The notes under the pieces: model-generated
The model's database searches: none
What the model saw: the letters and a program-made list of their open reading frames with translations, nothing else
What the model was told of the DNA's origin: nothing
Part shown: in pieces, positions 9,605 through 62,930 of the stretch
Numbering within the stretch: position 1 is the stretch's first letter
Layout: the number at the start of each line of letters is the position of its first letter
Made by a program: the position numbers and the translations under genes
DNA from: Eledone cirrhosa
Lineage: Eukaryota
Direction of reading: 5' to 3'
Assembly (NCBI GenBank): GCA_964016885.1
Contig: OZ024742.1
Location: 360,964,001-361,028,000 of the forward strand
Length of the DNA: 64,000 nt

Positions 9605-10374
<770 letters not shown>

Positions 10375-15219: not shown

Positions 15220-15226
<7 letters not shown>

Positions 15227-15517
15227 ATACTTTGAGAGGGTCATGTTGCCAATAAGAAACACATGCACCAGTGCTTTCACTTCAATTTATTATAATAAAT
15301 TTATAAATTTAGGAATTTATAAATTTCCTGTTGGTTGGTTCCACAACCAGATGGTTGTTTATATATTGTCAAAGTTCTTTCGTCACACATTCTGTGCCCT
15401 CTTCAGTGACTGGGGGTTCTTTTCTTTGTTCTGTCCTACGCCATCTTGTTTTTTTTTTTTTTTTTTTTCAACACACGTTTTCAGATAAAGAACCTTGCTA
15501 AACAAATTCAGAAACGA
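15220..15517 (-). mobile_element. Family B PLE-type pLTR fragment joined head-to-head with its own tail
   Basis: 15220-15450 matches 62257-62520 and includes a hammerhead motif at ~15368-15410. 15468-15517 is the reverse complement of the tail at 62198-62250. Confidence 0.75.
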
Positions 15518-18399: not shown

Positions 18400-18403
<4 letters not shown>

Positions 18404-19511
18404 AAAGAATAGAGGTGTAACACACAAGTTATTATATATTGGTAAACGGAATAGAAAATGCTGACAAATTGTTCACGGTTGAAAAATGGTTTAATTAGGA
18501 ATAAAAGAGTATTAGTGATTGTATGGGTTAGTATTCAGTTGTGATTTTAAGTTTTTAAAACCACAACTGAATACTAACCCATACAATCACTAATACTCTT
18601 TTATTCCTAACTAGCAGTAAAGCCCGGCGTTGCTCGGGGTCGCTCAGTAGCTGTGTTAAAGTTACAATGTTAAGTTTCTTTCTTGGCTTAAAAACTGTAG
18701 TGTCTACTGTGCAGACTTGCATGTGGTGTTTTTTATTAATATTCCCCCAACCAACAATATGCCTTATGAAGTTAAGAAAACATAACGATAACCCGAATGT
18801 TATAACAAAAGAGGATGCTGGGGATAGAAACTGCACTGGTTATTTATTAACAAAGATCGAAAATGTAAACATTGCAACGCAGAGAAAAACATTAGCGTAA
18901 CCAAATTATCAGTTATGTCTGTCTGCACGACTGTCTGTCTGCACGCCTATATCACCTCTCTGCACGACTGTCTGTCTTCACGCCTATATCACCTCTCTGC
19001 ACGACTGTCTGTCTGCACGCGTATATCACCTCTCTGCACGACTGTCTGTCTGCACGCCTAACGACGAAATATTTGCTTGTTTTACGTAGACTTGTTTTCA
19101 AGTAAAAATATTGTTTTAAAATGCTTTTAAATGGAAATGAAGCAAAACGGAAGCTTAGTGTTCGAATGTTCGTGTATTGTGTTAATGTCATTTTAAACGC
19201 TGAGAAAGCCAGCGTAATTTTTTACGTAAGACGCTCAATGTAAACAGAACAAAGGGAAATAACTGATCACTTACGCTCAAAAATCGATACATTATATTCG
19301 ATTTCGTCACATAGGGTGGGTCAATTTGAAATTATTTTTTTTCCGATGTCTTCGCTAGGGCTCAATGTACAAGTATAGCAATTCCGTGAGAGATTCTAAG
19401 AGGAGATGTGTGCCAAAAATCGATAGACATACAGACAACCACAGTTTTATATATATAGATTAAACCATTTTTCAACTGTGAACAATTTGTCAACATTTTC
19501 TATTCCGTTTA

Positions 19512-19517
<6 letters not shown>
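18400..19517 (-). mobile_element. Fold-back element (family C) interrupted by a Helitron
   Basis: 18443-18547 is the reverse complement of 18557-18610 + 19460-19517. The unpaired tail is 18400-18442. The same sequence occurs uninterrupted at 31506-31616 and 40707-40817. Confidence 0.85.
18611..19459 (-). mobile_element. Non-autonomous Helitron
   Basis: Minus strand starts TCTATATATATAAA and ends hairpin cccgagcaacgccggg + ctttactgCTAG. Inserted between A and T without TSD: removal restores attcctaattaaacc as seen at 31551. Internal (CTGT)n-containing tandem repeat at 18917-19060. Confidence 0.88.
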
Positions 19518-30833: not shown

Positions 30834-30887
<54 letters not shown>

Positions 30888-30903
30888 CATATATATATAC
30901 ATT

Positions 30904-30954
<51 letters not shown>

Positions 30955-30955
30955 T

Positions 30956-31047
<92 letters not shown>

Positions 31048-31049
31048 CG

Positions 31050-31081
<32 letters not shown>

Positions 31082-31247
31082 CATATATACATATATACAT
31101 ATACATATATACATATATACATATACATATATATACATATACATATATATATACATATACATATATATATACATATATATATATATACATACATATACAT
31201 ATATATATACATATATACATATACATATATATATACATATATATATA

Positions 31248-31285
<38 letters not shown>

Positions 31286-31312
31286 CATATATATATACAT
31301 ATATATATATAC

Positions 31313-31345
<33 letters not shown>

Positions 31346-31418
31346 CATATATATATCAGAGCAATATATATATACATATATATATACATATATATACACA
31401 TATATATACATATATATA

Positions 31419-31616
31419 TCAGAGCAAACAGCACGGACACTCTATCTCAAAATTATTTTTGAAAAGCATTTAGAAATGCGCAACCGGTAAAAACTTAAAA
31501 ACTTAAAACCACAACTGAATACTAACCCATACAATCACTAATACTCTTTTATTCCTAATTAAACCATTTTTCAACTGTGAACAATTTGTCAGCATTTTCT
31601 ATTCCGTTTACCAATA
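31419..31616 (+). repeat. Family C 198-bp island in TA/CA tract
   Basis: Appears identical to 40621-40817. Its 3' part matches the fold-back at 18443-19517. Confidence 0.85.
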
Positions 31617-31617
31617 C

Positions 31618-31664
<47 letters not shown>

Positions 31665-31685
31665 CATATATATATATATGTACAC

Positions 31686-31722
<37 letters not shown>

Positions 31723-31735
31723 CATATATATATAC

Positions 31736-31766
<31 letters not shown>

Positions 31767-31781
31767 CATATAGATATATAC

Positions 31782-31846
<65 letters not shown>

Positions 31847-31847
31847 C

Positions 31848-31962
<115 letters not shown>

Positions 31963-31971
31963 TATATATAA

Positions 31972-32035
<64 letters not shown>

Positions 32036-32046
32036 TTATATATACA

Positions 32047-32084
<38 letters not shown>

Positions 32085-32085
32085 A

Positions 32086-32552
32086 TGTAGGAGGTGAGTT
32101 TTATTGTAGTACAATAAAGCAATGCAGATATCGGATAAGAAGCACTCTACAGTTTGTGGGACTGGAGTATGCATAATATAAGATCAAAAGATGGTTAAAG
32201 GAGTTCAATATATTTTATTATGCGCATTTCAAAAACAAACATCATCAAACAATAATATTTGTGTTTTCATCAGATAAAACAGGAGAACATGATATGAAGG
32301 CTAAAAAAACACTTGTTGATAGTGCAGTTTTAAATCAACATATATGTTGATTTAAAACTGCACTATCAACAAGTGTTATAAATCAACATATATGTTGATT
32401 TAAAACTGCACTATCAACAAGTGTTTTTTTAGCCTTCATATCATGTTCTCCTGTTTTATCTGATGAAAACACAAATATTATTGTTTGATGATGTTTGTTT
32501 TTGAAATGCGCATAATAAAATATATTGAACTCCTTTAACCATCTTTTGATCT

Positions 32553-32918: not shown

Positions 32919-33706
32919 ATAATAAATAAATAACAAAGAACGCTTATAGCATATGCATATCTTTACTTGCTAACATTGTTTCATCCACACTATAAGTGGG
33001 ACTCATCAGAGCATAAAGGTTAATTACATACCATACAAGCAATAACAAATCCAAGACATTGAAGAATGAAAGGTAATAATAGACGATAGAGGATAAGAAT
33101 AAAAAGTAAATAAAAATAAAAGTGAAAATAAAAATAAAAATAAGGGGTGCTATCTGTCACAGTTGGGCGGTGTGCTGTCAACATATAGTTACATACAAGC
33201 ATACACATGGATAAGAGAACAGACAAGAGTAGACACATGGATAAGAGAACAGACAAGAGTAGATAAGATAATGGGATTAGGTAAGAGTAGGTAAAAAATA
33301 GGTAAAAAATAGGTAAAAAATAGGTAAAAAACAGACTTATAATATATATATATAAAAAGAACTACAAAGAAATACATAACAAACTTACATATAAAATATA
33401 AAATATAGGGTAAGGAATGAGATAAAATAATATACAATTAAAAATTAAAAATTATATACATAGAACATAATATAGTATAATCGTAAAATAAGATAAAATA
33501 AGGTAAACTAAAATCAAATAACATAGACTAAATTAAAATTAAAATCAAATGTGTAATTATAATTATATGTATAATTAAATGTAATTAAATGTAATTAAAT
33601 AAATAAAGAAAGAAAGAAATAAATAAAAATTAAAAATTAAATAAATAAATAAATAAAATTAAAATTTAAATTTTAAAATTTTAAAATTAAAATCTAAATT
33701 TAAATA

Positions 33707-33753
<47 letters not shown>

Positions 33754-36700
33754 ATGGAGTCAAGTAAGTAAATAAATAAAATTAGATAACATGAAATGAA
33801 ATAAAATAAAATGAAATAAAGTAAATTGAGATAAGATATATATTTTTTTAGAATATATCTCTTGAATATATCAGGGGCCCACGAAGGCACTAAATGTCAC
33901 AGTTATGTGTATCACTTGACCAATTTTTCAAAATACATTTCTTGAAAACATCAGGGGCCCACGAAGGCACTAAGTGTCACAGTCACCAGTATCACTTGAC
34001 CATTGCAAGGCAATGGAGGCGTCCCAGGTTGGGCAGTCTCGAAAGTTCACTCGAAAGTCATGGGTGTGCATTCACACAGTTGAGCGGTGGGGTAATCACA
34101 AACCGGTTCACACACCAATTTTTTAAAAATATATTTCTTGAAAACATCAGGGGCCCACGAAGGCGCTAAGTGTCACAGTCACCAGTATCACTCGAGCGGT
34201 GGGGTAATCACAAACCGGTTCAACACGGGCAGGAGTCAAATGGTCAGAAAGGTGCATCAAAGGAGGTAGAAGAATTCACATGCAAGCGTTAGGTTAAAGC
34301 AAGCAGATACAGTTGTAGCGCATACAAAATACAAAATATAAAAGCCATTAAGTCACCGCATTGGGACATCACAAGATTGTACACATCAATATGTTCAGTA
34401 CGTATATGCACGTATACACACCACATGCACATGCAGAGACGGTATACATATATATATATATATTTTTTTTTATATATATACACACAGACACATATAACCA
34501 CCTACACCCATACACATATAAATCTATACACGGGCACACACGCACACACACACAGCGTAGGATACCCGGGTCAAAGTCGATATTAAATACGATATTAAAT
34601 ACAATATTAAATATTAAACACCGAAATACCACATTAGATCAGACCCACCACCACAGGTAATATATTCAAAACAAATACATACGATGAGATGTATTAAAAT
34701 ACAGTTGAAATCCTACGGAGATATTCATGTCTGCACGTGCCATTGACCGATTCGAGTGTACACAGACCGTTAGTAACTACGGAGGGCCATCGGGGCCAAA
34801 ACGTTACTTTCGGGATCATAAAAACGACCGTCAATATAAGGAAGGCCGATCGTGCTAGAAAGACTACAACCCCGGGTAAGAGTTCCCAGAGGTCAGCCTG
34901 TAGATCTTGAACCACAGAATATGAGGGCAACACATATATGCGCCACGTATCCACTGCTTACGGCAGGATGGCTCGGGTCCGCCACAGTTACAGGCTAAAT
35001 TTCTACTAGTGCAGCCTAAATCACAGTACACGCTTTACATAAATACATTACATCACAACTCATGCGCATACAGAGGTACAAATCAACAAGATATACGCCA
35101 GGATAGGTCCACCAATGCACTAATGGTGGGTAGGCCAGCGTGGATGGGTTACATCCACTGTACCAAACAGGGGTGCTTATTAACATACACTCCCCTGCAC
35201 ACCCCAATATCAAGATCAATATCCTCCCACAGGCATACGTATACATTCACAGACTCGTATACATAGACGACCAACATTAGGAGACAGTTACACTCAGTCA
35301 GAGACAGTTACACAAGACAGCCCAACTGGAGGGATAAGGACGTGCTAGCTAACAGGTTTAAAGTAGAAGAAAGAGCTTAATATTCGGTGGGGGCAAGAGG
35401 AAAAAATTTCAGACTTTCTATTTAGTAGAGGGCATTTAGCAAATATAATAGAGTGGGATTCGGCAAGGCACAGGTTGCATACTCTACTATGAGGAGTATA
35501 TGGATGGGATTTAGCAACCTGCCGCCAAGTAAGTGTGTAAGGTGTCCGTGCATTTTTTAAATTATGGACGTACGCTGCCAAGGAGGTGGAGTTCTTCAGT
35601 TTATTATGTCTAAAAGTGCATTGATGAGAGTTAAACCTGGTCTTAAAGGGGGTGGAAGTTGATCCTATATAGGTCATAGTGGACGCCGTAGTTACCACAT
35701 CACACGCATAAACTATGTTTCTAACAAGGCAGAAACCATTCAGGGGGCAGCCCGAAGCCCTTCTACAGTTACAACCTCTGGTGATGCTATTCTCAGAAAG
35801 ATCACCACCAGTGTCACTGCCCACTCTATCCACTACCGTGTTTTCCCCTAGGCTTAGGTTGTCCAGGCCTTCCTTTATTTTCTTATTATTAGTAATGGCC
35901 AGATGAGAGGCTAGATTTTGGGTTGTAGAATATGAAAGTTTAACAACATTCTTATTGAGGATAGAGTGGTACCTATTACCAGGAGGGAAGTTCCGTTCTA
36001 GCACAGAGAAGAAGGCCCTAGGAATATTTGTAGCCACTTCAGAATTAAAAGGGGGGTTGAAGTATGTATTCAATCTTCTTCTATTCTTTTTATTCTTTCT
36101 ATTTCCATCAGTATTATTAGCATTATTATTTCTACGGTTCCTATGCTCACCTAGTCCATGCGGGGAGCTGCGAGGCCCACCATTGCTATTACTTATACCA
36201 ATGGTGCCCTGCTGGTTCATTCCACCGGCATCTAGAAACCTCCCGTTCACGACACCTCTATTGTTATTACTTAGACTAATGGTGCCCTGCTGTTTCATTC
36301 CACCGGCATTTAGAACCCTCCCATTCGCGACACCTCGATTACCAATGGACATATTATGTGTTATAACAACACTGGTAGAGCCACTATTAGGACCATTATT
36401 TCCCTGGGTGTAATACAATTTGTCCCTAAAGCCGGATCTAGCTAAGGCGTCGTTATAGTAATCAGCCTGCGAGTCAAACGCCTCCTCACTATGTGAGAGT
36501 GAACTTATTCTATTAGATACGCCCTTCATTACATTTAATTATACATATAATTATAATTACACATTTGATTTTAATTTTAATTTAGTCTATGTTATTTGAT
36601 TTTAGTTTACCTTATTTTATCTTATTTTACGATTATACTATATTATGTTCTATGTATATCATTTTTAATTTTTAATTGTATATTATTTTATCTCATTCCT

Positions 36701-37290
36701 TACCCTATATTTTATATTTTATATGTAAGTTTGTTATGTATTTCTTTGTATTTCTTTTTATATATATTATAAGTCTGTTTTTTACCTATTTTTTACCTAT
36801 TTTTTACCTATTTTTTACCTACTCTTACCTAATCCCATTATCTTATCTACTCTTGTCTGTTCTCTTATCCATGTGTCTACTCTTGTCTGTTCTCTTATCC
36901 ATGTGTATGCTTGTATGTAACTATATGTTGACAGCACACCGCCCAACTGTGACAGATAGCACCCCTTATTTTTATTTTTATTTTTATTTTCACATTTTAT
37001 TTTTATTTACTTTTTATTCTTATCCTCTATCGTCTATTATTACCTTTCATTCTTCAATGTCTCGGATTTGTTATTGCTTGTATGCTATGTAATTAACCTT
37101 TATGCTCTGATGAGTCCCACTTATAGTGTGGATGAAACAATGTTAGCAAGTAAAGATATGCATATGCTATAAGCGTTCTTTGTTATTTATTTATTATATT
37201 ACGGCTCTGTCCTCAGACATTGAGCTAACCTCATACTGCCTGCTGGATAAGTGGAGTGTTATACACCCCTGATCCTCTCCCTAGCATACT
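32919..37290 (-). mobile_element. Penelope-like element with inverted pLTRs (ORF 36529-35345, GIY-YIG)
   Basis: YFNPPFN, RYHSILNKNVVKLSYS, CNCR..CPL..CLVRNIVY, YIGST..FKTRFNSH, CNLCLAE, LNRKSE..CPH motifs. 32919-33585 and 36528-37198 are near-perfect inverted repeats; tail 37199-37290; (TA)n on both sides. Confidence 0.92.
37103..37148 (+). ncRNA. Type-I hammerhead ribozyme motif (mirror copy at 32968-33013 on -)
   Basis: tgct CTGATGA gtcc cac ttata gtg t ggat GAAA ca a tg TT agca. Confidence 0.85.
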
Positions 37291-37742: not shown

Positions 37743-37966
37743 TATATATATATATACATATATATATATATTTCCTTTCTGAATTTGTTTAGCAAGATTC
37801 TTTAACTGAAATTGTGTGTTGGCAACCTGACCCTCCCAAAGTATAACAATATATATATATACATATACATATATATATACATATATATATATACATATAT
37901 ATAGATAGATATATACATATATATATATACATATATATATACATATATATATATATATACATACAT

Positions 37967-38137: not shown

Positions 38138-39383
38138 CATCATCATCATCATCATCATCATCAACGTTTAACGTCCGTGTTCCACGCTTGCATGGGTTTG
38201 GACGGGGGTAGTCCCACTTGAGGCAAGAGTGATTGTCTTGCTCGCATAGGACTGTCTGGCAGGTTTTCTACAGTTGGATGCCCTTCCTAACACCAACCAC
38301 ATTTACAGTGTGGGTCTGGGAGGTTTTTACCGTGTTGCCTACATGGCCACATTACAGCGTGGACTGTGTGTTTTTTTGTCGTGACACCTACACGATCTCA
38401 TTTGTTTCGGCCTGGATGGCGCGGCACCAACATAACTTTACATAGAACGGGGTGGTGTGGATGGGGTGGGGGTGGTGGCGGGACGGGGTGTATTTTGTTA
38501 GAGATGCCTACTGGCAAGGCGGGTCTTCTCTGTTACTGAGTACCGCCAAAGGTCTCGGTCCAGTGACATTGTCTTGGAGAGGTGTAAGTGTGTGAGGTCG
38601 GAGTTTATCAGCTCATCCCATGTTTTTCTAGGTCTGCCTATTCCGTGGCTACCATCTATCTTTATTGCCCTGCACTTTGTAATACAGCTATCGACTTTCA
38701 TGCGCATCACGTGTCCATACCAACGCAGCCTTCTCTCGAGTAAACAACATCTGATCCCTCTTATCTCTAATTTTTTCCTTAGTTCGTTTATGCTTTGCCG
38801 TTCACGCATATTACTGTTACACATCCAGCGGAGCATGCAAGCTTCGTTCCTCTCTAGTCTGCGTATATCCTCTGCACACAATGCCCAGGTCTCACTACCA
38901 TGCAACATTGCTGTTCGTATGCAGGCATCGTACAACCTGCCTTTCATTTTTAGGGAGAACCCTTTAGCAGCTAATAGTGGTATAAGCTCTCTGAACTTTT
39001 TCCAACCAGTTCTGACTCTAGCTACAGTACTTTCAGAGCACCCTCCCCCACTGCTGATTTTATCGCCCAGGTAACGGAAGCTGTCCACTATTTCTATAGA
39101 ACCCTCTGCGCAATTGAAAGAGCTAGTATTTTGTGGGCAATTGCTGCTACTTATTGCACCAGAACACCGGCCACATGTAAAGTCTATGTTCTTAGTTAGC
39201 TTACCTGTGATCCCACTACATCTTTTATACACCCATACTTTGCATTTAGGACATAAGATGGAGTTTCTACCTACGCCTTTCCTACATACTGAGCACGACC
39301 ATTTCCCAGAAGGGACCGCCGCCTTGTTTTCTTTCCTACAAACTAGAACTTTGGTCTTAGCCAGGTTAATTTTAAGTCCTTTT

Positions 39384-39561: not shown

Positions 39562-39566
39562 CATAC

Positions 39567-40104
39567 ATTATTCCGGGTTGAATCGGAGATAACAACAGTA
39601 AGTAAGGTACTCAATACATAGCAGAGTATAAAAGTTTTAATATAGATGAGATTCTACAGGACTAGAACTGTTTCATTCATTAGAAATCATCAGGAATCTG
39701 GGTATCAAAAAATAAATACGGTATTATTAGGTCTCTACAAGTGGTAGGAGAGGGTGGGGAGTGGGATGGGTGAAGGTCATTGGTTGATAGAAAAGGGAAT
39801 TCATTAAAAGCTAATTCTACAAAGCTATAGTTTATTTTTATTTATTTATGTTTTTAGAGTAACAAGGGCAGACAGAATTCTATAAACAGGTTCCGGATGG
39901 CATACCATTCCTTGTCATTAAGTTTCTCTTAAGCTAACAGATGTCTATAAAATCAGTGGGGGGTCAGTCATGGTCCATAGAATTAAAGAAAAGGGAGATT
40001 CTTTAAAAGCTAAAATCATTAAGGTTCTACTAAGTGACAAAGGTCTAGAGAATTCTGCAGACAGATTCAAAATACTGAGTGCATATCTTACTATTATCTT
40101 CGAA

Positions 40105-40106
<2 letters not shown>
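39567..40106 (-). mobile_element. PLE pLTR-like fragment (family E) with hammerhead at 39649-39699
   Basis: Minus strand agattc CTGATGA t ttc taat gaa t GAAA cag ttctagtc ctg TA gaatct. Tail 39567-39640. Stubs at 44820-44866 (+) and 47519-47569 (-). Confidence 0.75.
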
Positions 40107-40141
<35 letters not shown>

Positions 40142-40148
40142 TATATAC

Positions 40149-40284
<136 letters not shown>

Positions 40285-40432
40285 ATATATACATATACAT
40301 ATATATACATATACATATATATATACATATACATATATATATACATATATATATATACATACATATACATATATATATACATATATATATATACATATAC
40401 ATATATATATACATATATATATATACATACAT

Positions 40433-40465
<33 letters not shown>

Positions 40466-40476
40466 TATATATATAC

Positions 40477-40525
<49 letters not shown>

Positions 40526-40620
40526 CATATATATATCATAGCAATATATATATACATATATATATACATATATATACACATATATATATACATATATATA
40601 TACATATATACATATATATA

Positions 40621-40817
40621 TCAGAGCAAACAGCACGGACACTCTATCTCAAAATTATTTTTGAAAAGCATTTAGAAATGCGCAACCGGTAAAAACTTAA
40701 AAACTTAAAACCACAACTGAATACTAACCCATACAATCACTAATACTCTTTTATTCCTAATTAAACCATTTTTCAACTGTGAACAATTTGTCAGCATTTT
40801 CTATTCCGTTTACCAAT
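40621..40817 (+). repeat. Family C island, second copy
   Basis: Matches 31419-31616. Confidence 0.85.
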
Positions 40818-40840
40818 ACATATATATATATATACATATA

Positions 40841-40897
<57 letters not shown>

Positions 40898-40924
40898 CAT
40901 ATATATATATATAAAATATATATA

Positions 40925-40973
<49 letters not shown>

Positions 40974-40999
40974 CATATATTATATATATATGTATACAA

Positions 41000-41032
<33 letters not shown>

Positions 41033-41065
41033 CATATATATATACATATATATATATATGTATAC

Positions 41066-41102
<37 letters not shown>

Positions 41103-41115
41103 CATATATATATAC

Positions 41116-41146
<31 letters not shown>

Positions 41147-41161
41147 CATATATATATATAC

Positions 41162-41230
<69 letters not shown>

Positions 41231-41263
41231 CATATATATATATATACATATATAGCTATATAT

Positions 41264-41366
<103 letters not shown>

Positions 41367-41409
41367 CATATATATATACATATATATATATACACACACA
41401 TATATATAA

Positions 41410-41454
<45 letters not shown>

Positions 41455-41515
41455 CATATATATTTACATATATATATATACATATATATATATATGTATA
41501 TATATATATGTATAC

Positions 41516-41554
<39 letters not shown>

Positions 41555-41583
41555 CATATATATATACATATATATATATATAT

Positions 41584-41660
<77 letters not shown>

Positions 41661-41675
41661 CATATATATATATAT

Positions 41676-41930
<255 letters not shown>

Positions 41931-41954
41931 CACATATATATAAATATATATACA

Positions 41955-42056
<102 letters not shown>

Positions 42057-42254
42057 CATATATATTTACATACATATACATATATATATATATTTACATA
42101 TATATACATATATATATATATTTTGTTTCAATTTATCGTTTTCGGTATGCCTGACCGATTTAACTCACTCGATATGCAAATTAGGCTGCTCAGCCGTTAA
42201 TTTTCATAAGGAAAGTATATACTTTCGAACGTTCAACTATCTGGCAGATGGGTA

Positions 42255-42299: not shown

Positions 42300-42649
42300 C
42301 CTGTGTCAGTGTTTAACAAAAAGGTGACGTGGTTGCCTTAACAGAGTATGGCATAAATTTAGGCTGTTCAGTTTGTTTACAAACGAACAAAGCGACGTTA
42401 TAATAAGCGCCGCTAAACTGATACGTGCATATATGTATGTGTACCTGTATGCATATGTATATATATATGTATATATATATATATATGTGCATGCTACTGT
42501 ACGTCTGTATACATATATGTATGTACGTATACATGCATACTTACATTTAAGTAAGTGCCATACTAAGAGTGAGAAATGAAATTTCGTTTTCATTTTGTTT
42601 CAACATATACATATACATATATATATACATATATATATATATATACATG

Positions 42650-43127
42650 CAATATTAAATAAATGGAAAACTATATTTATAAAACCATATTTATTTCATT
42701 ATATATATTTCGGGGATATCATATTAACAATATGCTATGCCTTCATCAGACAAAATACAATATAAACAGTTTTATAGATAAATAGATTCGACATACCGTT
42801 ATAACACCGACTTCATTTGAAGAGGTTTACGCTGGCTGTTTAAACACAGCCAGCGTAAACCTCTTCAAATGAAGTCGGTGTTATAACGGTATGTCGAATC
42901 TATTTATCTATAAAACTGTTTATATTGTATTTTGTCTGATGAAGGCATAGCATATTGTTAATATGATATCCCCGAAATATATATAATGAAATAAATATGG
43001 TTTTATAAATATAGTTTTCCATTTATTTAATATTGTAAATATACTCCAAATATTTGTCGAGTGCTTTTATACCAGTTATAAATATTTACTAGTTGTAACC
43101 CAACAATTTTAAATATAACTTTCCATG
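42650..43127 (+). mobile_element. Fold-back non-coding PLE-type element (family A), apparently perfect 190-bp arms
   Basis: Arms 42650-42839 / 42846-43035 and tail 43036-43127. Hammerheads at 42929-42992 (+; attttgt CTGATGA..GAAA tatata TA atgaaat) and 42693-42756 (-). Confidence 0.92.
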
Positions 43128-43252
43128 TATATATATACATATATATATATACATATATATATATACATATATATATACATATATATATACATATATATAT
43201 ATATATACATATATATATACATATATATATATACGTGTATATATATACATAT

Positions 43253-44625: not shown

Positions 44626-45071
44626 CATATATATATACATATATATATATACATATACATATATATATACATATATATATATACATACATATACATATAT
44701 ATATACATATATATATATACATATATATATACATATATATATATACATACATATACATATATACATAGATATATATACATATATATATATATACATATAT
44801 TTTTATATATATATATACATGATTTCTAATGAATGAAACAGTTCTAGTCCTGTAGAATCTCATCTATATATATACATATATATATATACATATATATATA
44901 TACATATATATATATATACATATATATATATACATACATATATATATACATATATATATATATACATATATATATATACATACATATATATATATACATA
45001 TATATATACATATATATATACATATATATATATTCATATATATATATACATATATATATAAATATATATAC

Positions 45072-47456: not shown

Positions 47457-47519
<63 letters not shown>

Positions 47520-47624
47520 GATGAGATTCTACAGGACTAGAACTGTTTCATTCATTAGAAATCATCAGGTATATATACACATATATATATACATATATAA
47601 ATATATACATATATAAATATATAC

Positions 47625-47829: not shown

Positions 47830-47993
47830 CTTATATATATATACATATATACTTATATATATATATATACATATATATATATACATATATATATACACAT
47901 ATATATGTACACACACATATATATATACACATATATATCTATACATATACATATATATATATATACACAGATATATAGGTGCTGGTATACATA

Positions 47994-49757
47994 GGTGCTC
48001 TTATAACTATATTGATATCGTCTACATTGTAGACGATATCAATATAGTTATAAGAACACCCCCACTAGAGAGCACTAACAAGTTTGATTTAGAACGTAGC
48101 ACGATGGAAAGCATCCAGCAGATAGCTAATTCCATACACCAGAGTATAACTGTAACTATCGACTTCCCTTCCAAACACCATAACAATAGACTACCTGTAT
48201 TAAACACAGAACTTTGGATTAATACTATGGACGAGAGCGCCCAAATTCTCCACTCACACTATGCTAAACCCATGGCCTCCAAATACATGATACTCTAAAA
48301 CTCAGCAATGTCCAGTAGTGCTAAATTTAATATTCTGATCGCAGATTTGGTACGAGTGATGAAGAATGTGTCCAGCATGTGCGAACCAACAGAAATGGAA
48401 AAACACATCCAACACTTCATCAACCGCATGCAGTTCTCTGGCTACAACCAAAGAGACAGAGTCAGAGTATATGAAGGAGCCATGGAAAAGTATAAGACCC
48501 TCATAGAACTGCACATGAAAGGAATTTGCCCACTATACAGGAGCAAATCATGGAATAGCTTAGATAGGGCTAGACATAAGATAGGGAAGGCCACATCATG
48601 GTACGACAACCAGAGATATCAGAGTGTCATGTTTGTGGACGGCACCCCTGGAGGGAAATTAGCTAACCAGTGTAGAAAGGCCCTGAGAAAGACCCACTTA
48701 AAAATAAAGGTGGTAGAAAAGCCAGGAACCACCATAAAATCCCTGATCAGCAAAACCTAGCCTTTGAAGAAAACCCACTGTACCAATAGGTAATGTATCA
48801 CATGTAAGGTGAACCCCCGGATAAACTGTAAAACTAGAAACGTAGTCTATAGCATAAGATGTACAGAGGGTACTTGCGGAAACATGACAACAACATACAT
48901 AGGTGAGACAGCTCGTAGCATAGGTGAAAGGATAGACCAACACTGGGGGGAACTAAAAGGACGAAAAAACGGGTCAGTACTATACGAACATGCTAGACAA
49001 CAACATGACGGTAACATAGACAACACAGAAATTAGAATAATATCTAAACATAGGAATGACCCAGCAGATAGGCAAATCAGAGAGGCCAGTGAAATAGAAA
49101 TTAGAAGACGAAAGCTAAACAGAAAGAATGAGTGGAACAACAACAACACCCAAACAAACAACACTGACCTAAGAGAAGTATAAATAAGTAAATAAAATAA
49201 AATAAAATAAGATAAATAAATACATACACAAGCACAATAACAACAAGCACATAAACACACACTAGTCACCCAGCAGACACAACACTATACACACTAGTCA
49301 CACAGCGCATATAACACTATACACACACGCAAACGCATGCGCAATGAAGACGAAATAAAATAAGATAAACAAACAAGCAAATAAATAAATAAATATATAG
49401 ACAGACTGAATAAAAAATGGCGTAGACATACAACACAACAGGAGGAACAATGAATATAACACCACTGACGATGTTGCAGATGTGCAACGAAAGATTTATG
49501 TAAATTATGTAAACTATATATATGTGTTTGTGTCTATATTGTATCTGTATTATTTTTGACCGCCGGTCAGTCAATGGCAAAATTGAGGACCGAGTGAGTT
49601 AGATCGCAGATATAAAAGACAGCGAGACGCGAAAACCAACCAAACAGTGAGTGTGTTCTGTTATTAATTCTGGCAATATTACGCAAATATGACCCTCCCC
49701 AAGTATAAAAATATCTGTTTCGACACACGATTTCATATAAAAAACCTCGCTAAACTA
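47994..49757 (+). pseudogene. Penelope-like element of a second type, 5'-truncated at the RT (Y)VDD motif, with in-frame stops
   Basis: One frame from 48029 (VDDINIV) through HYAKP..SA, a Cys-rich linker and NVVYSIRC..C..YIGETAR..ER..QH to 49183. Stops at 48296, 48758 and 48791. Hammerhead core at 49465-49492 (CTGACGA t gttgca gatg tgcaac GAAA). 3' end related to family B. Confidence 0.85.
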
Positions 49758-49822
49758 ATATATATATATATATTCTCATATATATATATATATACATATA
49801 TACATATATACATATCTATATT

Positions 49823-49951: not shown

Positions 49952-51101
49952 CATTTTATGTCCTAAATGCAAAGTATGGGTGCATAAAAGATGTAGTGGG
50001 ATCACAGGTAAGCTAACTAAGAACATAGATTTTACATGTGGCCGGTGCTCTGGTGCAATAAGTAGCAGCAAGTGCCCACAAAATACTAGCTCTTTCAATT
50101 GCGCAGAGGGTTCTATAGAAATAGTGGACAGCTTCCGCTACCTGGGCGATAAAATCAGCAGTGGGGGAGGGTGCTCTGAAAGTACTGTAGCTAGAGTCAG
50201 AACTGGTTGGAAAAAGTTCAGAGAGCTTATACCACTATTAGCTGCTAAAGGGTTCTCCCTAAAAATGAAAGGCAGGTTGTACGATGCCTGCATACGAACA
50301 GCAATGCTGCATGGCAGTGAGACCTGGGCATTGTGTGCAGAGGATATACGCAGACTAGAGAGGAACGAAGCTTGCATGCTCCGCTGGATGTGTAACAGTA
50401 ATATACGGGAACGGCAAAGCATAAACGAACTAAGGAAAAAATTAGAGATAAGAGGGATCAGATGTTGTTTACTCGAGAGAAGGCTACGTTGGTATGGACA
50501 CGTGATGCGCATGGAAGTCGATAGCTGTATAACAAAGTGCAGGGCAATAAAGATAGACGGTAGTCACGGAATAGGCAGACCTAGAAAAACCTGGGACGAG
50601 CTGATAAACTCCGACATCACACACTTACACCTCTCCAAGACAATGTCACTGGACCGAGACCTTTGGCGGTACTCAGTAACAGAGAAGACCCGCCTTACCT
50701 AAATATATAGTAAAACCTACTCCAGCCAGTAGGCATCTCTAACAAAATACACCCCGTCCCACCACCACCACCCCACCCCATCCACACCACCCCGTTCTAT
50801 GTAAAGTCATGTTGGTGCCGCGCCATCGAGGCCGAAACAAATGAGATCGTGTAGGTGTCACGACAAAAAAACACACAGTCCACGCTGTAATGTGGCCGTG
50901 TAGGCAACACGGTAAAAACCTCCCAGACCCACACTGTAAATGTGGTTGGTGTTAGGAAGGGCATCCAACTGTAGAAAACCTGCCAGACAGTCCTATGCGA
51001 GCAAGACAATCACTCTTGCCTCAAGTGGGACTACCCCCGTCCAAACCCATGCAAGCGTGGAACACGGACGTTAAACGTTGATGATGATGATGATGATGAT
51101 G
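49952..51101 (+). mobile_element. RTE-clade LINE, 5'-truncated
   Basis: C-terminal RTE ORF to 50702, 3' UTR, (GAT)n tail. Confidence 0.92.
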
Positions 51102-51174: not shown

Positions 51175-51288
51175 TATATACATATCTATATTTACATATA
51201 TATATATATATTCTCATATATATATATATATAAATATATACATATCTATATTTACATATATATATATATATTCTCCCCGACAATATCA

Positions 51289-53511
51289 AGGAAAACCGTG
51301 ATATTGTCGGGGAGAAGTGTGTGCTTAACGATGATGGCATACTTGCCATCACCGACGCTGATAAGAAGGTAGCTTGGAAGTGTCACTACGAAAGGCTTCT
51401 AAATGAGGAGAACAAATGGGAGAAAGACAGTCTCCCCCACATCGACCCAATAGAGGGACCAGCAGTGTTAGTCCAGGGTAGTACAATAAGCAAGGCAATC
51501 AAAGATATGAAGACGGGTAAGGCGGCTGGTCCTTCGGAAATAGTTGCTGAGATGCTGAAGGCATCTGGTTCGGTGGGACACACCATGGTCACCCGGATAG
51601 TTAACCAAGTCGTACAGAATGGGGTTGTTCCGAAGGACTGGCGTAGCAGCATCATCGTTAACTGCTATAAGGGAAAAGGAGATGCCCTAGATAGGAGTAA
51701 CTATAGAGGCATTAAATTAATCGACCAGGTCATGAAGGTCACGGAAAAAGTAATAGCGCAACTAATCAGAGAGAGAATTGATCTAGATGAAATGCAGTTC
51801 GGATTTGTGTCAGGCAAAAGTACCACAGACGCTCTTTTCATTGTACGACAACTACAGGAGAAGTACCTAGCTAAAAGTAAACCCCTATACTTAGCTTTCG
51901 TCGACTTGGAGAAAGCCTTAGACAGAGTCCCCCGTTCCATTATCTGGTGGTCTCTTAGAAAACTAGGTGTTGACGAATGGCTTGTGAGAGCTATACAAGC
52001 CATGTATAAAGAAACAGTCAGTAAGGTTAGAATTAACAACGAATATAGTGAAGAGTTTAGCGTAAAATTTGGTGTCCATCAGGGCTCTGTTCTTAGCCCC
52101 CTACTATTTATTATTGCCCTTCAGGCTATAACAGAGGAGTTCAAGACCGGCTGCCCATGGGAACTCCTATACGCAGATGATCTAACGCTCATAGCTGAAT
52201 CAATGACCGAACTAGAGAAGAAATTCCAAACATGGAAGCACGGCCTAGAATCAAAAGGCCTTAAAATTAACCTGGTTAAGACTAAAGTTCTAGTTTGTAG
52301 GAAAGAAAATAAGGCGGCAGTCCCATCTGGGAAATGGCCATGCTCAGTGTGTAGGAAAGGCGTAGGTAGAAACTCCATTTTATGTCCCAAATGCAAAGTA
52401 TGGGTGCATAAAAGATGTAGTGGGATCACAGGTAAGCTAACTAAGAACATAGTTTTACATGTGGCCGGTGCTCTGGTGCAATATGTAGCAGCAAGTGCCC
52501 ACAAAATACTAGCTCCTTCAACTGCGCAGAGGGTTCTATAGAAATAGTGGACAGCTTCCGTTACCTGGGTGACAAAATCAGCAGCGGGGGAGGGTGCTCT
52601 GAAAGTACAGTAGCTAGAGTCAGAACTGGATGGAAAAAGTTCAGAGAGCTTATACCACTATTAGCTGCTAAAGGGTTCTCCCTAAAAATGAAAGGCAGGT
52701 TGTATGATGCCTGCATACGAACAGCAATGCTGCATGGCAGTGAGACCTGGGCATTGTGTGCAGAGGATATACGCAGACTAGAGAGGAACGAATCTTGCAT
52801 GCTCCGCTGGATGTGCAATAGTAATATACATGAACGGCAAAGCATAAACGAACTAAGGAAAAAATTAAAAATAAGAAGGATCAGCTGTTGTTTACTCGAG
52901 AGAAGACTACGTTGGTACGGTCACGTGATGCGCATGAAATACGACAGTTGTATAACAAAGTGCAGGGCAATAAAGATAGACGGTAGCCACGGAGTAGGCA
53001 GACCCAGAAAAACATGGGACGAGCTGACAAATTCCGACCTCACACGCTTACACCTCTCCAAGACAATGTCACTGGACCGAGACCTTTGGCGGTACTCAGT
53101 AATAGAGAAGACCCGCCTTACCTAAATACAAAGTAAAAACCTACTACAGTCAGTAGGCATCTCTATCAACCCCCCCCCCCCCGTCCCACCACCTCCACCC
53201 CATCCACACCGCCCCTTTCAATGTACAGTTATGTTGGTCCCACAACATCCAGGCCGAAACAAATGAGATTGTGTAGGTGTCACGTCAAAAAACACACAGT
53301 CCACGCTGTAAATGTGGCCGTGTAGGCAACACGGTAAAAACCTCCCAGCCCCACACTGTAAATGTGGTTGGTGTTAGGAAGGGCATCCAACTGTAGAAAA
53401 CCCGCCAGACAGTCCTATGCGAGCAAGACAATCACTCTTGCCTCAAGTGGGAAAACCCCCGTCCAAACCCATGCAAGCGTGGAACACGGACGCTAAATCG
53501 GATGATGATGA
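51289..53511 (+). mobile_element. RTE-clade LINE with RT domain, 5'-truncated, frameshifted
   Basis: NYRGIKL, QFGF, FVDLEKA, GVHQGSVLSPLLF, LYADD in 51321-52541. Frameshift near 52452, continuing to 53125; (GAT)n tail. Flanked by repeated catatctatatttacatatatat (TSD-like). Confidence 0.95.
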
Positions 53512-55488: not shown

Positions 55489-55493
<5 letters not shown>

Positions 55494-55784
55494 ATCATTA
55501 TGTAATAAACAACATAAGGCAATTATTCCATTTACCAGTGGTTTCTTAAAAGCAAAAGGTTTTGCTTTCAATCCTCAGAATGAAAAATCCTGGTTTGTTT
55601 ATTGAATATGGATTCTAAAAACAAAAATGCAATCTATATGAAAGTGAGGCTGGAAAAGGGAGAAGGAAAGGAAAAATAAAATAAAACTACACATGCAAAC
55701 ACACACAAAAAAACACAAAAGCATACTTACACACACATACATATATACACATATATATAAATGCACGCATACACATATACATAT

Positions 55785-55830
<46 letters not shown>

Positions 55831-55962
55831 AACGTACACCTACACACACATACACATATATACACACATATACACATACATATATTCATTCATACACACA
55901 CACATATACACACATACACACACACACACAAACACACACATATATATACACATGTACATATC

Positions 55963-56000
<38 letters not shown>

Positions 56001-56426
56001 TACATATATACACATATACATACACACACACACACACACACATGTGTGTGTACAAGCATACACATACACACACACATATATATACACACACATACATACA
56101 TTCACACAAACATACAACGTACATAGATACACATACATGAATGCACTCCACTACATATTAACACACGCAAATAAATATAAGAAAAATATATATAAATATA
56201 TATTAACAAATTTTTGACAGCGATACATGCCCCAGCTAACAGGACAGACACGCGTGGTAAGTAATACACACATAAGCACATATACATACGTTCGAAATAG
56301 TAAACACATACACACACTCTCACACATAAATATACATATACAAATACATAAACACGTACATACACATACATACACAAACACGTACACGTATACAATATAA
56401 ACATACACATGTATATGTAATTATAT

Positions 56427-56465
<39 letters not shown>

Positions 56466-57060
56466 CATACAAAATATAAAAATAAAAAAATATAAACGCA
56501 CACACACATATAAATACGTAAACACACATATACATACATAGCTAAACAATTATACACATGCAAATACGTATATATCAAAAGAACGCACAACCAAATACAA
56601 ACACACACACATATATATACACCCACATCCACCCACACACAAACCCACACATACATAAAAATAAATAATACACACGCACACATATACATACATACACATA
56701 CATATACATATATACATATACATACATATATATACACATACATATATAAATATATATATATATATACACACATACACGTACACATACACACATGCATACA
56801 CATACACACACACATATACATGTGTGTATGTGTAAAGCTCAGTATTAGATAAGACAAATGAACCTTACATAAACGTATATATAGTAGTAAAGTAATAAAG
56901 CCATACAAGGCAATTAATCCATTCACCAGAGGTTTCTTAAAAGCAAAAAAAGTTTCCTTCAATCTTCAGAATGAAAAAAACCTGGTTTATCCACATATAC
57001 ATACATATACACACACAAAATTACAAATATATACACACATACAGACACGCACACACACAC

Positions 57061-57097
<37 letters not shown>

Positions 57098-57907
57098 CAG
57101 ACATATATACATACATATATATACACATACACATATATATACATACATACATACATATATATATACATACACAAACATATACGTACACATATACATATAT
57201 ACACACAAAAATACATACACATACACATAGGTATGTGAAGGGCAAAACAAAAAGTATATATGGGGGGGGGGGGGCCAAGAGGAGGTAAAAATATAAGGGG
57301 AGGTACCCTTTGGTACTCCCTCGAAAGGTCTAATATAGACCAATCAATAGAGTACGGGATATTACTATCCTTGAGATCCCATACCTTACTTGCGAGGGCC
57401 GTGGATGTTCGTTTATCTGAGTGTTTAAAAGAAGCGACAAGGGGCACAAAGAATTGTTCTTTGTGTACCACAGAAAAGTATAGGATTTTGCTAAACTTGA
57501 GAGACACTTCCGCTTGCCTTAACTCTAAGACTGAGATCTTCAGATGCTGTCCTCATCTGAAATCGCATCTGATCTGTAACTGGATTGACACTCCTACGAT
57601 AAATCAACCGCCTTGAACTCCTTCTCTGCTCTTTACTTTTGCTACGGTTTTTATTTTGCTGCTTCTACCTTCTGTACTCTTGTATATTTAAAATTTTTTT
57701 CTCCCTACCTCCCCTTATATTTTTACCTCCTCTTGGCCCCCCCCCCCATATATTCTTTTTGTTTTGCCCTTCACATACCTATGTGTATGTGTATGTATTT
57801 TTGTGTGTATATATGTATATGTGTACGTATATGTTTGTGTATGTATATATATATGTATGTATGTATATATATGTGTATGTGTATATATATGTATGTATAT
57901 ATGTCTG

Positions 57908-57971
<64 letters not shown>

Positions 57972-58563: not shown

Positions 58564-58594
<31 letters not shown>

Positions 58595-59022: not shown

Positions 59023-59076
<54 letters not shown>

Positions 59077-59443: not shown

Positions 59444-59469
59444 ACACATATATATATATATACATATAT

Positions 59470-61298
59470 CCAGACACAGGCGAGGCGTAAAAACCTCTGT
59501 TTTAATATAGAGGTGTTAGTATTTACAAAACCAGCCTCTACCTTGTAAATATCAGTATTCCTGAATGAGATATGTATCCACAATGTGTGAAAATTAATGA
59601 TCTTATGTTTAGTTTTTAAAAAAAATTCATATGTTTATGTCATAATTACAAACATCTATGTGAATGTACATGATCAATTCTGCAAACCCTAAGTTCACGG
59701 AAAGTATTCTCAATGTGGTATAAAAATTTAAGTATACATATATGTGTATATAGAGTCAATATTACTATTTCTGTCTATCAAGCAAAGATAGAGCAGATTT
59801 CAATATACTAATAAAAATAAAAATAAAAATATATCGGAAACAAAACTAAAAATAACAATAATAATAAGTAATAATAAAATAGAAAACTAAGAAATATTAC
59901 GAAAGAATATTACATATTAAAAATATTACATATTAAAAAATTTACATATTAAGAATATTAAAAATAAAAATTAGGAAATACTACAATAATAAAAATAAAA
60001 TAAACCACAAAGATCAACCCTTCAAAATTAATTGACAATATATTGCCAAGTTCATTATAAACATCAGAGTCGAAAAACAGATAAAGCCAAAAATTATCTA
60101 TCAAATCGCATCTAGTAAAGATCATTTCAAAAAGTATAGGATGCCCAATTTGGTCTACATGTGTTCTTATATTTAATATAGAAGTTTATCTAGTGTAACG
60201 TTTATTCGAAATATTTGGAGCATCAACTTTTAGGATAGCTTAATTTTTCATGAAGAATGTTTAAATAAATAAAATAAAAATAAAAAGAATAAAGAGAATC
60301 AAAGATTTATCGGCTAGTTTCCCATATAATTATAAATCAAACTAAATATACTACATTTTAAATTTAAATTTATATTTAAACGTTGAGTTTAATCTATGTT
60401 TGCAACAACTGAATAAATTTGTCCGTAGATTAAGGGAATTTTTAGATTTTAGTATAAAGAATATCTCCTCTGCGCAGAGGTCACATGTCTCAGAGGATGA
60501 ATTAAAAGGAATCCCTCTTGAGACTATATTCCAAGCCGTCGAATATCTAACGTTATCTAGCTTAAGTTGCCATAGTACGCCTGATAGTGCCGTTGAAGAT
60601 TTTTTACTTGGATCTGTGAAAGAATTCTTGTGGTTATTATAGCGAAGTTTAAATTCCGTCGATGTGGAACCGACGTAGTTAAAAGAATTAGAGTCAGTAT
60701 TAACATTACAATTGTATACTATATTTTTAACTAAGCAGTTGTTATTTAACGGACATTTAGATCTATCTCTACAGTTACATTTGTTAACTTGTATATTATT
60801 TATGCTGTTATCACTAGGTTTTAAGTTCCTATTATTTATTCTATTGATATTTTGTGCTAAATTTTTGGTGGATGAGTAGGTTAATTTAATTGTATGTCTA
60901 TTGAAAATTGAGTGATATCTATGTGTTCTAGGGAAGCGATTATCAAGAGCTTTAAAAAATAGTTTAGCGATGTGGGTTTTAATGTTTAGTGAGAAAGGGG
61001 GGGGGGGGGGGGCAAACCAAATTATGTTCCTAGTTCTATTTCTTTTTTGGCCTTTGGAATTATTGTAATGCTTTCTATTATAGTTGTTAAGGATGTTGCC
61101 GTAATTAAAAAAGTTGTTACTTTGTTTAGTTTGTCTATCATTATCTATGTACACAATCTTATCAGCATATCCTGCTCTAGCTAATGCTTCATTGTAGTAT
61201 TGGGCTTTTTCGTCGAAAATCTTTCTATTCGACGAGATCCTAGAGATACGTTTTTGGACAGAGTTTACTATAGTGTTTTTGACAGATCTGGGGTGCTC
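59470..61298 (-). mobile_element. Penelope-like element 3' part (open frame 61298-60351, GIY-YIG)
   Basis: Frame is open from EHPRSVK..RISRISS..YYNEALARAGY through WF.PPFS, HRYHSIFNRHTIKLTYS, CNCR..CPL..NIVY, YVGST..FKLRYNNH, CDLCAEE and LNLR..CKH. Confidence 0.9.
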
Positions 61299-61940
61299 TC
61301 TCTATATTTTTTCTCTCCCTATATAACAGCTGGTTTTCCCTCCATATATCTCCCTTATATTAATACTAGAGCTAAATAAATAAATAAATAAATAAATGTA
61401 TCATTGATACGTTATTGAACAGTCGTCCCATTACCTAGCTTTCTCTATATATATATCTATCTCTATTTCCTCTCTCTCTATATATATATATCTCTTTCTG
61501 TTTCTTTACATGAAGTTCTTCTCTTTATCTATCTTTCCATCTCTCTATTTTGTTCCATGCATCTCTTCTTTTTCTTTTTCTTCGTTTTCTGTCTTTCTTT
61601 CCTTTTTTCTCTCTTTTTCTCTCTTTCTCTCTCTCTTTCTTTCTCTTTGTGTACAATTTTGTCACTACCAAATCAACCTTCTCAAATGCAAGTAGATGTT
61701 ACGGTATGTCGAATCTATTTATCTATAAAATTGTTTATATTGTATTTTGTCTGAGGAAGGCATAGCATATTGTTAATATGATATCCCTGAAATATATATA
61801 ATGAAATAAATATGGTTTTATAAATATAGTTTCCATTTATTTAATATTGTAAATATACTCCAAATATTTGTCGAGTGCTTTTATATCAGTTATAAATATT
61901 TACTAGTTGTAACCCAACAATTTAAATATAACTTTCCATA
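61299..61940 (+). mobile_element. Family A pLTR with hammerhead (61744-61807) and tail
   Basis: 61700-61940 is nearly identical to 42885-43127; core CTGAGGA...GAAA tatata TA. Confidence 0.85.
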
Positions 61941-62043
61941 TATACATATATATATATATATATACATACTTATATATATATATATACACATATATATATA
62001 TATATATACGGATTAACAAATAATAGTTAAATGCAGTCCACTT

Positions 62044-62197: not shown

Positions 62198-62930
62198 ATT
62201 TCGTTTCTGAATTTGTTTAGCAAGATTCTTTATCTGAAATCGTGTGTTGAAACCGATATTGTTATACTTTGAGAGGGTCATGTTGCCAATAAGAAACACA
62301 CGCACCAGTTGCTTTCACTTCAATTTAATTTATTATATATTTATAAATTTACAAATTTATAAATTTCTGGTTGGTTGGTTGGTTCCACAACCAGATAGTT
62401 GTTTATATATATATAGTCATAGTTCTTTCGTCACACACTCTGTGACCTCTTCAGTGACTGGGGATTTCTTTCTTCGTTTCTGTGCCATTCCTTTCTTCTA
62501 TCCTACGCCATTTTGTTTGTGTGTGGGTTGCGTGCTCAGTTTGCGCATGCGCCACATCCGGGTGTCTGTGTGTGTTTGTGTTCATTTTTTGTGTTCATTT
62601 TGTGAACACAAACACACACAGACACCCGGATGTGGCGCATGCGCAAACTGAGCACGCAACCCACACACAAACAAAATGGCGTAGGATAGAAGAAAGGAAA
62701 GGCACAGAAACGAAGAAAGAAATCCCCAGTCACTGAAGAGGTCACAGAGTGTGTGACGAAAGAACTATGACTATATATATATAAACAACTATCTAGTTGT
62801 GGAACCAACCAACCAACCAGAAATTTATAAATTTGTAAATTTATAAATATATAATAAATTAAATTGAAGTGAAAGCAACTGGTGCGTGTGTTTCTTATTG
62901 GCAACATGACCCTCCCAAAGTATAACAATA
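62198..62930 (-). mobile_element. Fold-back non-coding PLE-type element (family B)
   Basis: Arms ~62257-62584 / ~62603-62930 and tail 62198-62256. Hammerheads at 62415-62459 (-) and 62728-62772 (+; agtca CTGAAGA g gtcac agagtgt gtgac GAAA gaac TA tgact). Confidence 0.92.

What the first reader, a model, noticed from the sequence alone, without database searches (positions are those of the whole stretch)
42650..43127. Asymmetric ends: the inverted arm stops at a fixed family-specific point while the other arm carries a tail
Seen: in family A (9660, 42650) the short arm ends at ...tttccattta(t)ttaatat. Family B arms and stubs end at ...gaccctccc(a/c)aagtataacaat (15220, 37850, 55403, 62930, 63258). 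Family E ends at ...gaatctcatctatat (44866, 47519) and family C at ...ccgtttaccaat. Tailed partners run 40-100 nt further. Each fixed end is followed by a TA-like word in the longer copy. Inference: two priming events on the same RNA, one at the tail end and one at an internal TA-like site that can pair with the nicked (TA)n target, produce two head-to-head cDNAs. This would be a direct footprint of the integration mechanism.
Basis: partly seen in the sequence, partly recalled or inferred. Interest (0 to 1): 0.75.

Follow-up and report, generated by a model that had tools for sequence, protein, structure and literature searches.

The report
Penelope retrotransposons primed from both ends
These lopsided DNA hairpins are insertions of Penelope-like jumping genes, a known layout; in four families almost every back-to-back pair has one short and one tailed end, often inside a roughly 14-base target duplication, which likely means both cut DNA strands start copying the same RNA at two fixed internal points.

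Summary
Family A is the hammerhead-bearing end repeat (pLTR) of a Hydra-clade Penelope-like element; an intact 737-aa copy lies elsewhere in the genome. Families B, C and E are other Penelope-like families. Ends are bimodal: 105 of 109 family-A ends lie at the short (S) or tail (T) point. All 35 multi-hit clusters are head-to-head, and 113 of 118 pairs in four families are one S plus one T. Partner arms share haplotype in 39 of 39 pairs. Either arm can be the longer and some T arms are tail-only, so fold-back of one cDNA fails for those. Interrupted microsatellites and one empty paralogue show a ~14-nt target duplication. Corrections: T is also an internal RNA site, 28-49 nt before the ORF start; TA-likeness is only modestly enriched and does not choose the sites; E's main short end lies 7 nt further out; several cited stubs have no partner. 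The inverted-plus-tail layout and two internal start sites are published. Strict pairing as twin priming was not found in my paper searches, but this scan has noted it before, in this genome and in others. Verdict: known element class; good genomic support for an open mechanism.

The parts
42650..42839 (-). Family A short (S) arm: inverted, 5'-truncated pLTR copy ending at the fixed short point
   Evidence: 190 of 190 identical to the other arm; boundary ambiguous by about 2 nt
42846..43035 (+). Family A tailed (T) arm, part shared with the S arm
   Evidence: 98.9% to the intact copy L038
43036..43127 (+). Tail: RNA between the two start points; holds a predicted stem-loop with an AC-rich loop that is also predicted in the diverged sister copy
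42928..42993 (+). Predicted type I hammerhead ribozyme, palindromic 3-bp stem III, 8-bp stem I, predicted cut after 42985; mirror copy on the minus strand (core at 42749, cut after 42700)
   Evidence: motif scan; no hammerhead family among the 150 Rfam rows shown of 410
42636..42648 (.). Left copy of a probable 13-nt target-site duplication (right copy 43128-43140)
   Evidence: a chance match is about 5% in this periodic satellite
59470..61295 (-). Older family A copy: inverted arm with the ORF's C-terminal part (60351-61301) and 3' UTR, ending at a non-standard internal point about 18 nt before its partner begins
61296..61937 (+). Tailed partner arm of that copy; 14-nt duplication 59456-59469 / 61938-61951; arms do not overlap, as in L1-type twin priming
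   Evidence: chance match about 2%
9660..10108 (.). Diverged sister of family A: S arm left, T arm right; hammerhead core decayed (GAAA reads AAAA), stem I complementary through different bases
62202..62929 (.). Family B palindrome, T left and S right, hammerhead motif in both arms
37774..37850 (.). Minimal family B insertion: tail-only T arm head-to-head with a 30-nt S stub, sharing 3 nt at the joint
   Evidence: read from the sequence
15221..15516 (.). Family B: S arm left, tail-only T arm right
18400..19516 (.). Family C palindrome (T left, S right) split by an unrelated 845-nt insertion at 18614-19458
39566..39700 (-). End of a family E tailed arm with hammerhead motif; lone E short stubs lie at 44819-44869 (+) and 47515-47565 (-)

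Best explanation
The feature is the insertion footprint of endonuclease-bearing Penelope-like retrotransposons (family A: Hydra clade): one short arm and one tailed arm joined head-to-head, likely made when both 3' ends of a staggered cut in (TA)n prime reverse transcription on one RNA at two fixed internal sites. Shown: element identity, bimodal ends, S+T pairing, shared haplotype, target duplication of about 14 nt (12-15, because boundary bases are shared). Inferred: the RT-endonuclease, probably as a dimer, cuts both strands and leaves 3' overhangs; it binds the RNA around the tail and places one overhang at S and the other at T; 1-7 nt of pairing with UA-rich RNA sets the exact register; the T-primed cDNA either stops near S or displaces the S-primed cDNA, since these RTs lack RNase H (recalled); the two cDNA 3' ends join through short homology and are filled in.
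For: Intact parent L038: ORF of 737 aa with RWR, DKT, YRDD, CxCx5C, CxxC and CxH motifs, a pLTR running through T to the ATG, and an inverted S arm, matching the Hydra description and alignments in PMC8557442. Of 62 clusters from the first 100 of 2941 exact hits, 35 of 35 multi-hit clusters are head-to-head. 105 of 109 non-read-through ends lie at S or T. S+T pairs: A 40 of 42, B 18 of 20, C 29 of 29, E 26 of 27 unique pairs (hand tally, 6 duplicates removed). Partner arms: no mismatch at 9 diagnostic columns in 39 of 39 pairs, against 20% between insertions; 0 of 2000 permutations as low (one pair had no diagnostic column and seven had only one or two). S arm longer in 12 pairs, T arm longer in 11 (over 30 nt; hand tally). 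Tail-only T arms beside S arms: L081, L100, L117, L156, L167 and window 37774 and 15466. Duplication: 11 of 21 informative family A insertions match at the 15-nt outer bound (permutation mean 0.17), 5 more at 12-16; paralogue L299 holds the 14-mer once where L083 holds it twice. Depth falls after S in runs labelled organisms A, B and C, and after T in A and B. An Anolis Penelope-like protein cuts and extends both strands, starts at two internal sites that bracket the tail, and is predicted to dimerise (PMC11167929, main text read).
Against: Shared haplotype cannot separate one RNA molecule from two transcripts of one source locus or from later conversion. 11 of 60 family A clusters show only one arm, some broken by later insertions. 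Five of 118 pairs are not S+T. Duplications are thin outside family A: B 2 of 5, C 2 of 5, E 1 of 4 informative cases, and 5 of 21 in A show none. T arms stopping just past S were seen 3 times among 59 family A hits and not in the B, C or E loci. TA microhomology is enriched only about threefold (25 nt against 9 expected over 8 sites, p 0.006, phase chosen in favour of the observed sites). In the Anolis test the two strands showed no difference in start site and the start site was not homologous to the cut DNA (PMC11167929). No RNA or enzyme data for these families.
Confidence: 0.72

Rival explanations
1. Two RNA molecules from the same source locus are held by an asymmetric protein dimer, one read from S and one from T.
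For: Explains overlapping arms without strand displacement; consistent with pairing, duplication and shared haplotype if one locus dominates in a cell.
Against: Several haplotypes are present and no pair mixes them. It needs an extra rule to forbid S/S and T/T. Abutting, non-overlapping arms (window 59470-61937, 37774-37850; L091, L127, L131) suit one shared template.
Confidence: 0.13
2. One cDNA (or an antisense RNA) folds back and primes itself; the endonuclease then trims the second arm at S. Self-priming is proposed in PMC3846280, and endonuclease-mediated resolution of the tail in PMC8557442.
For: Perfect arm identity; short palindromes at many joints; a 5' truncation hot spot shared by both arms.
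Against: It requires the S arm to be nested in the T arm. S is the longer arm in 12 of 23 unequal pairs, reaches full length in L137, L231, L232, L233, and tail-only T arms share nothing with their S partner. It could still make some of the symmetric short hairpins.
Confidence: 0.08
3. The palindromes are non-autonomous elements copied as whole units, or were homogenised or misassembled after insertion.
For: Many copies have similar size; a few joints recur.
Against: Joints differ between copies, recur with S and T swapped and on different haplotypes; arms range from tens of bases to full length; the S and T steps appear in independent runs.
Confidence: 0.04

Closest known systems
Hydra clade of Penelope-like elements (PMC8557442: abstract, section 11, passages and supplement rows seen; includes Hydra-1_Obim)
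   Same: Single ORF, RT then C-terminal GIY-YIG, DKT, RW[K/R], CxCx5C, CxxC, CxH, hammerhead, (TA)n target. Families A and E fit.
   Different: By eye a different family from Hydra-1_Obim; unit about 3.9 kb against the 'generally <3 kb' stated; the supplement lists no pLTR for Hydra-1_Obim; pairing rule and duplication length were not in the parts I saw.
Typical EN+ PLE insertion: inverted 5'-truncated pLTR with one-sided tail (PMC3846280 passages and Discussion; PMC8557442 passages; PMC2377424 passages)
   Same: Head-to-head arms, tail on one end, partial tandems, palindromic joints, target duplication.
   Different: Tails here are 40-89 nt (published 30-40) and lie before the ATG; the duplication is about 14 nt (8-10 in Adineta); the tail is described there as optional, here it is on exactly one arm in 113 of 118 pairs.
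PAc Poseidon of Anolis, internal RT initiation (PMC11167929, parts 1-2 of 4 read: all results and discussion, start of methods; text supplements searched)
   Same: Two internal start sites bracket the tail; AT-rich target; both strands extended.
   Different: Starts lie inside the ORF there; the text read does not assign one site to each strand of one insertion or explain the inversion.
L1 twin priming (Ostertag and Kazazian 2001; original not held, seen only as summarised in PMC2246262; rest recalled)
   Same: Both sides of the break prime two regions of one RNA; window 59470-61937 has this abutting geometry.
   Different: In L1 the second site is variable and arms barely overlap (recalled); here both sites are fixed, two-armed insertion is the majority outcome, and arms usually overlap.

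Membership tests
EN+ Penelope-like elements | RT followed by GIY-YIG endonuclease in the element's ORF | tested here: met
   L038 ORF: no Pfam or PDB hit, but BLASTP E 7e-12 to family C's RT (RVT_1 E 1e-6), 41% identity to family E's ORF (weak GIY-YIG hit, E 0.012), Atlas neighbours 0.96-0.99 carrying HTH_animal, GIY-YIG or RVT_1 in part of their members
EN+ Penelope-like elements | Partial tandem forming pLTRs, inverted 5'-truncated copy, one-sided tail | tested here: met
   L038, L050, L107, L133, L231, L235
EN+ Penelope-like elements | Hammerhead motif in the pLTR | tested here: met
   Motif scan finds it in A, B and E; none in the family C stubs of the window. Cleavage not tested.
Hydra clade | DKT, RWK-like motif, CxCx5C linker, CxxC and CxH, no CCHH | tested here: met
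   SDKT, RWR, CNCRDRSKC, CDLC, CKH in L038; equivalents in L232, against section 11 and supplement rows; comparison by eye
Hydra clade | Insertion into (TA)n | tested here: met
   flanks
Hydra clade | RT phylogeny places it in the clade | not tested
   no tree with published Hydra sequences was built
Naiad/Chlamys | N-terminal endonuclease, no hammerhead | tested here: not met
   endonuclease motifs are C-terminal and a hammerhead motif is present
Neptune/Nematis (family B only) | CX2-5CxxC linker before GIY-YIG | tested here: inconclusive
   L231 has a CX4CxxC linker; clade not resolved; family C's clade also not resolved
Twin-primed insertion | Both cut ends prime cDNA on one RNA molecule | not testable with these tools
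   indirect only

The most novel reading that the evidence does not exclude
Two-ended priming is the normal integration route of Penelope-like elements across clades: a dimer cuts about 14 nt staggered, each overhang is assigned to one of two RNA sites that bracket the tail, and the two first-strand cDNAs complete each other, so no separately primed second strand is needed.
Probability: 0.55. Interest if true: 0.7.

Novelty: new member of a known kind. Interest (0 to 1): 0.45.

Why it matters
How Penelope-like elements make their inverted ends and one-sided tail is called unresolved in PMC8557442 and is only partly answered in PMC11167929. A one-S-plus-one-T rule, a measurable cut stagger inside (TA)n and tail-only arms turn that question into specific predictions for the existing in vitro assay, and argue against self-priming as the general route. 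The element class and the layout are not new.

Tried and rejected
Rfam scan: the 150 rows shown of 410 were microRNA-family matches below threshold, nearly all on microsatellites. Pfam and PDB sequence searches with the L038 ORF: no hits. Single-sequence fold: pLDDT 32, not used, no fold search. No RNA holder listed, so start site and expression are untested. Orthologous empty site of L083 in four contig runs: no bridging record, inconclusive. Automatic search for empty paralogues among fetched loci gave only nested copies; a direct search then found L299. Tail-biased first search was not used for end or pair counts, but its loci are among the 62 family A insertions in the duplication test. 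Folding: 331-nt region z -2.0, tail plus leader z -2.4, other pieces not significant, so RNA structure as the site selector is only a lead. Collision signature not replicated in B, C, E loci; BLAST breaks at indels blur the 5' starts there. Two of 62 clusters were not fetched. [quoted passage not shown] Figures S1-S2 of PMC11167929 were not visible as text and may bear on strand-specific start sites. PMC4209133: passages on minimal, dimeric hammerheads seen.

Full report
Observation. The interval holds a near-perfect palindrome in a (TA)n/(TACA) satellite: a 190-nt left arm identical to the first 190 nt of the right arm, a 6-nt spacer and a one-sided extension. The end words cited for families A, B, C and E are at the stated places. 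Several cited stubs have no partner that I could see, and two (15221, 37850) have partners made of tail sequence only.

Identity. A genome search with the tailed arm gave near-identical copies. Wider stretches held an intact copy, L038, with a 737-aa ORF, a 1.6-kb 3' UTR ending at the tail end, an upstream pLTR and an inverted short arm. Its motifs match the Hydra clade of Penelope-like elements as described in PMC8557442 (by eye, no tree). Pfam and PDB gave no hit; support comes from BLASTP to family C's RT, alignment to family E and Atlas neighbours. A type I hammerhead motif with a palindromic stem III lies about 50 nt before the short end, the form described for these elements in PMC4209133 (passages). 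Read-through copies show that E is also Hydra-type, and that B and C are other Penelope-like families with an extra upstream ORF; their clades are not resolved.

Both ends are internal. In all four families some copies run on past the tail end, reaching an ATG 28-49 nt later. S and T are therefore two points within a tandem transcript, as found in vitro for the Anolis element (PMC11167929).

A 40-mer shared by both arms has 2941 exact hits. The first 100 form 62 clusters, and all 35 multi-hit clusters are head-to-head. In the 60 clusters fetched, 53 ends are at S, 52 at T, 3 read through and 4 end elsewhere; 40 of 42 pairs are S+T, one is S+S and one S+other. Six more S arms have short T partners, one T arm has a tiny S stub, two clusters are irregular and 11 show a single arm. 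Pairs chosen by orientation alone in B, C and E gave 18 of 20, 29 of 29 and 26 of 27. Family A's S junction is nearly base-exact; T has two registers, with or without a G. Family E has a major and a minor S point 7 nt apart. Runs labelled organisms A, B and C show depth steps at these points.

One template, two primers. Partner arms never differ at 9 diagnostic columns (39 of 39 pairs; 20% between insertions), though eight pairs cover two columns or fewer. The S arm reaches further 5' in 12 pairs and the T arm in 11 (hand tally). Tail-only T arms sit beside S arms in five loci and twice in the window. Neither arm can then be a copy of the other, which contradicts the self-priming model of PMC3846280 for those cases. 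The older copy at 59470-61937 has abutting arms, a non-standard internal point and a 14-nt duplication, the geometry of L1 twin priming. A pile-up of T-arm stops at S was seen three times in family A and not in the other families' loci, so it is weak.

Cut geometry. In interrupted microsatellites 11 of 21 informative family A insertions show a duplication at the 15-nt outer bound (permutation mean 0.17), five more at 12-16 nt and five none; B, C and E give 2 of 5, 2 of 5 and 1 of 4. Paralogue L299 lacks the insertion and holds once the 14-mer that flanks L083 twice. A 14-nt stagger fits both T registers (inference).

TA pairing. The run matching (TA)n at the eight sites totals 25 nt against 9 expected (p 0.006, slightly flattered by phase choice). 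Yet 10 sites within 500 nt are as TA-like as family A's T site, and E's main S site matches by one base. Pairing likely sets the register; protein or RNA structure likely chooses the site. A stem-loop in the tail is predicted in two diverged copies, but folding scores are modest.

What is known. The inverted arm with a one-sided tail is described in PMC3846280, PMC8557442 and PMC2377424 (passages), and two internal start sites in PMC11167929. My searches found no paper stating strict pairing or twin priming for this class; key older papers are not held. Earlier notes of this scan reached the same reading in this genome and in others; I saw them after my pairing, haplotype and duplication tests, and they are not independent support.

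Verdict. A real, known architecture in a new Hydra-clade family, with strong but indirect support for two-ended priming on one RNA (0.72). Interest 0.45.

Noticed in passing
window 18614-19458: 845-nt insertion splitting a family C palindrome; on the minus strand it starts TC and ends with a hairpin and CTAG, like a non-autonomous Helitron (label recalled).
   Followed up: no
window 32091-32551, 32926-37281, 55490-59380: Further asymmetric inverted elements of other families; hammerhead motifs by scan in the first and third; 35345-36538 and 28079-29446 encode Hydra-type endonuclease ends with long low-complexity inserts.
   Followed up: partly
window 47978-49760 and 2868: A B-related Penelope-like copy with broken ORF, short 5' palindrome and tailed end; it shares the short-end word with family B despite a different upstream sequence.
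   Followed up: partly
L038:7694-7716 and family A joints: Both arms often stop at one 5' hot spot beside a TCACT word, possibly the transcription start; full-length copies' upstream pLTRs often begin there too.
   Followed up: partly
L237 (G000:C1:83679000-83688900): Nine direct tandem units of about 1.1 kb, each ending in the family E tail plus microsatellite: a satellite built from an E end.
   Followed up: no
window 30834-32090 and 40103-42123: Two satellites carry an identical 186-nt family C arm with the same small upstream fragment, suggesting a local duplication.
   Followed up: no
window 38147-39381, 49952-51095, 51272-53497: Three related 5'-truncated LINE copies with an RT and a PHD-like finger, ending in (GAT)n.
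   Followed up: no
window 30636 (+) and 42262 (+): Two more hammerhead-like motifs with palindromic stem III, not assigned to a family.
   Followed up: no
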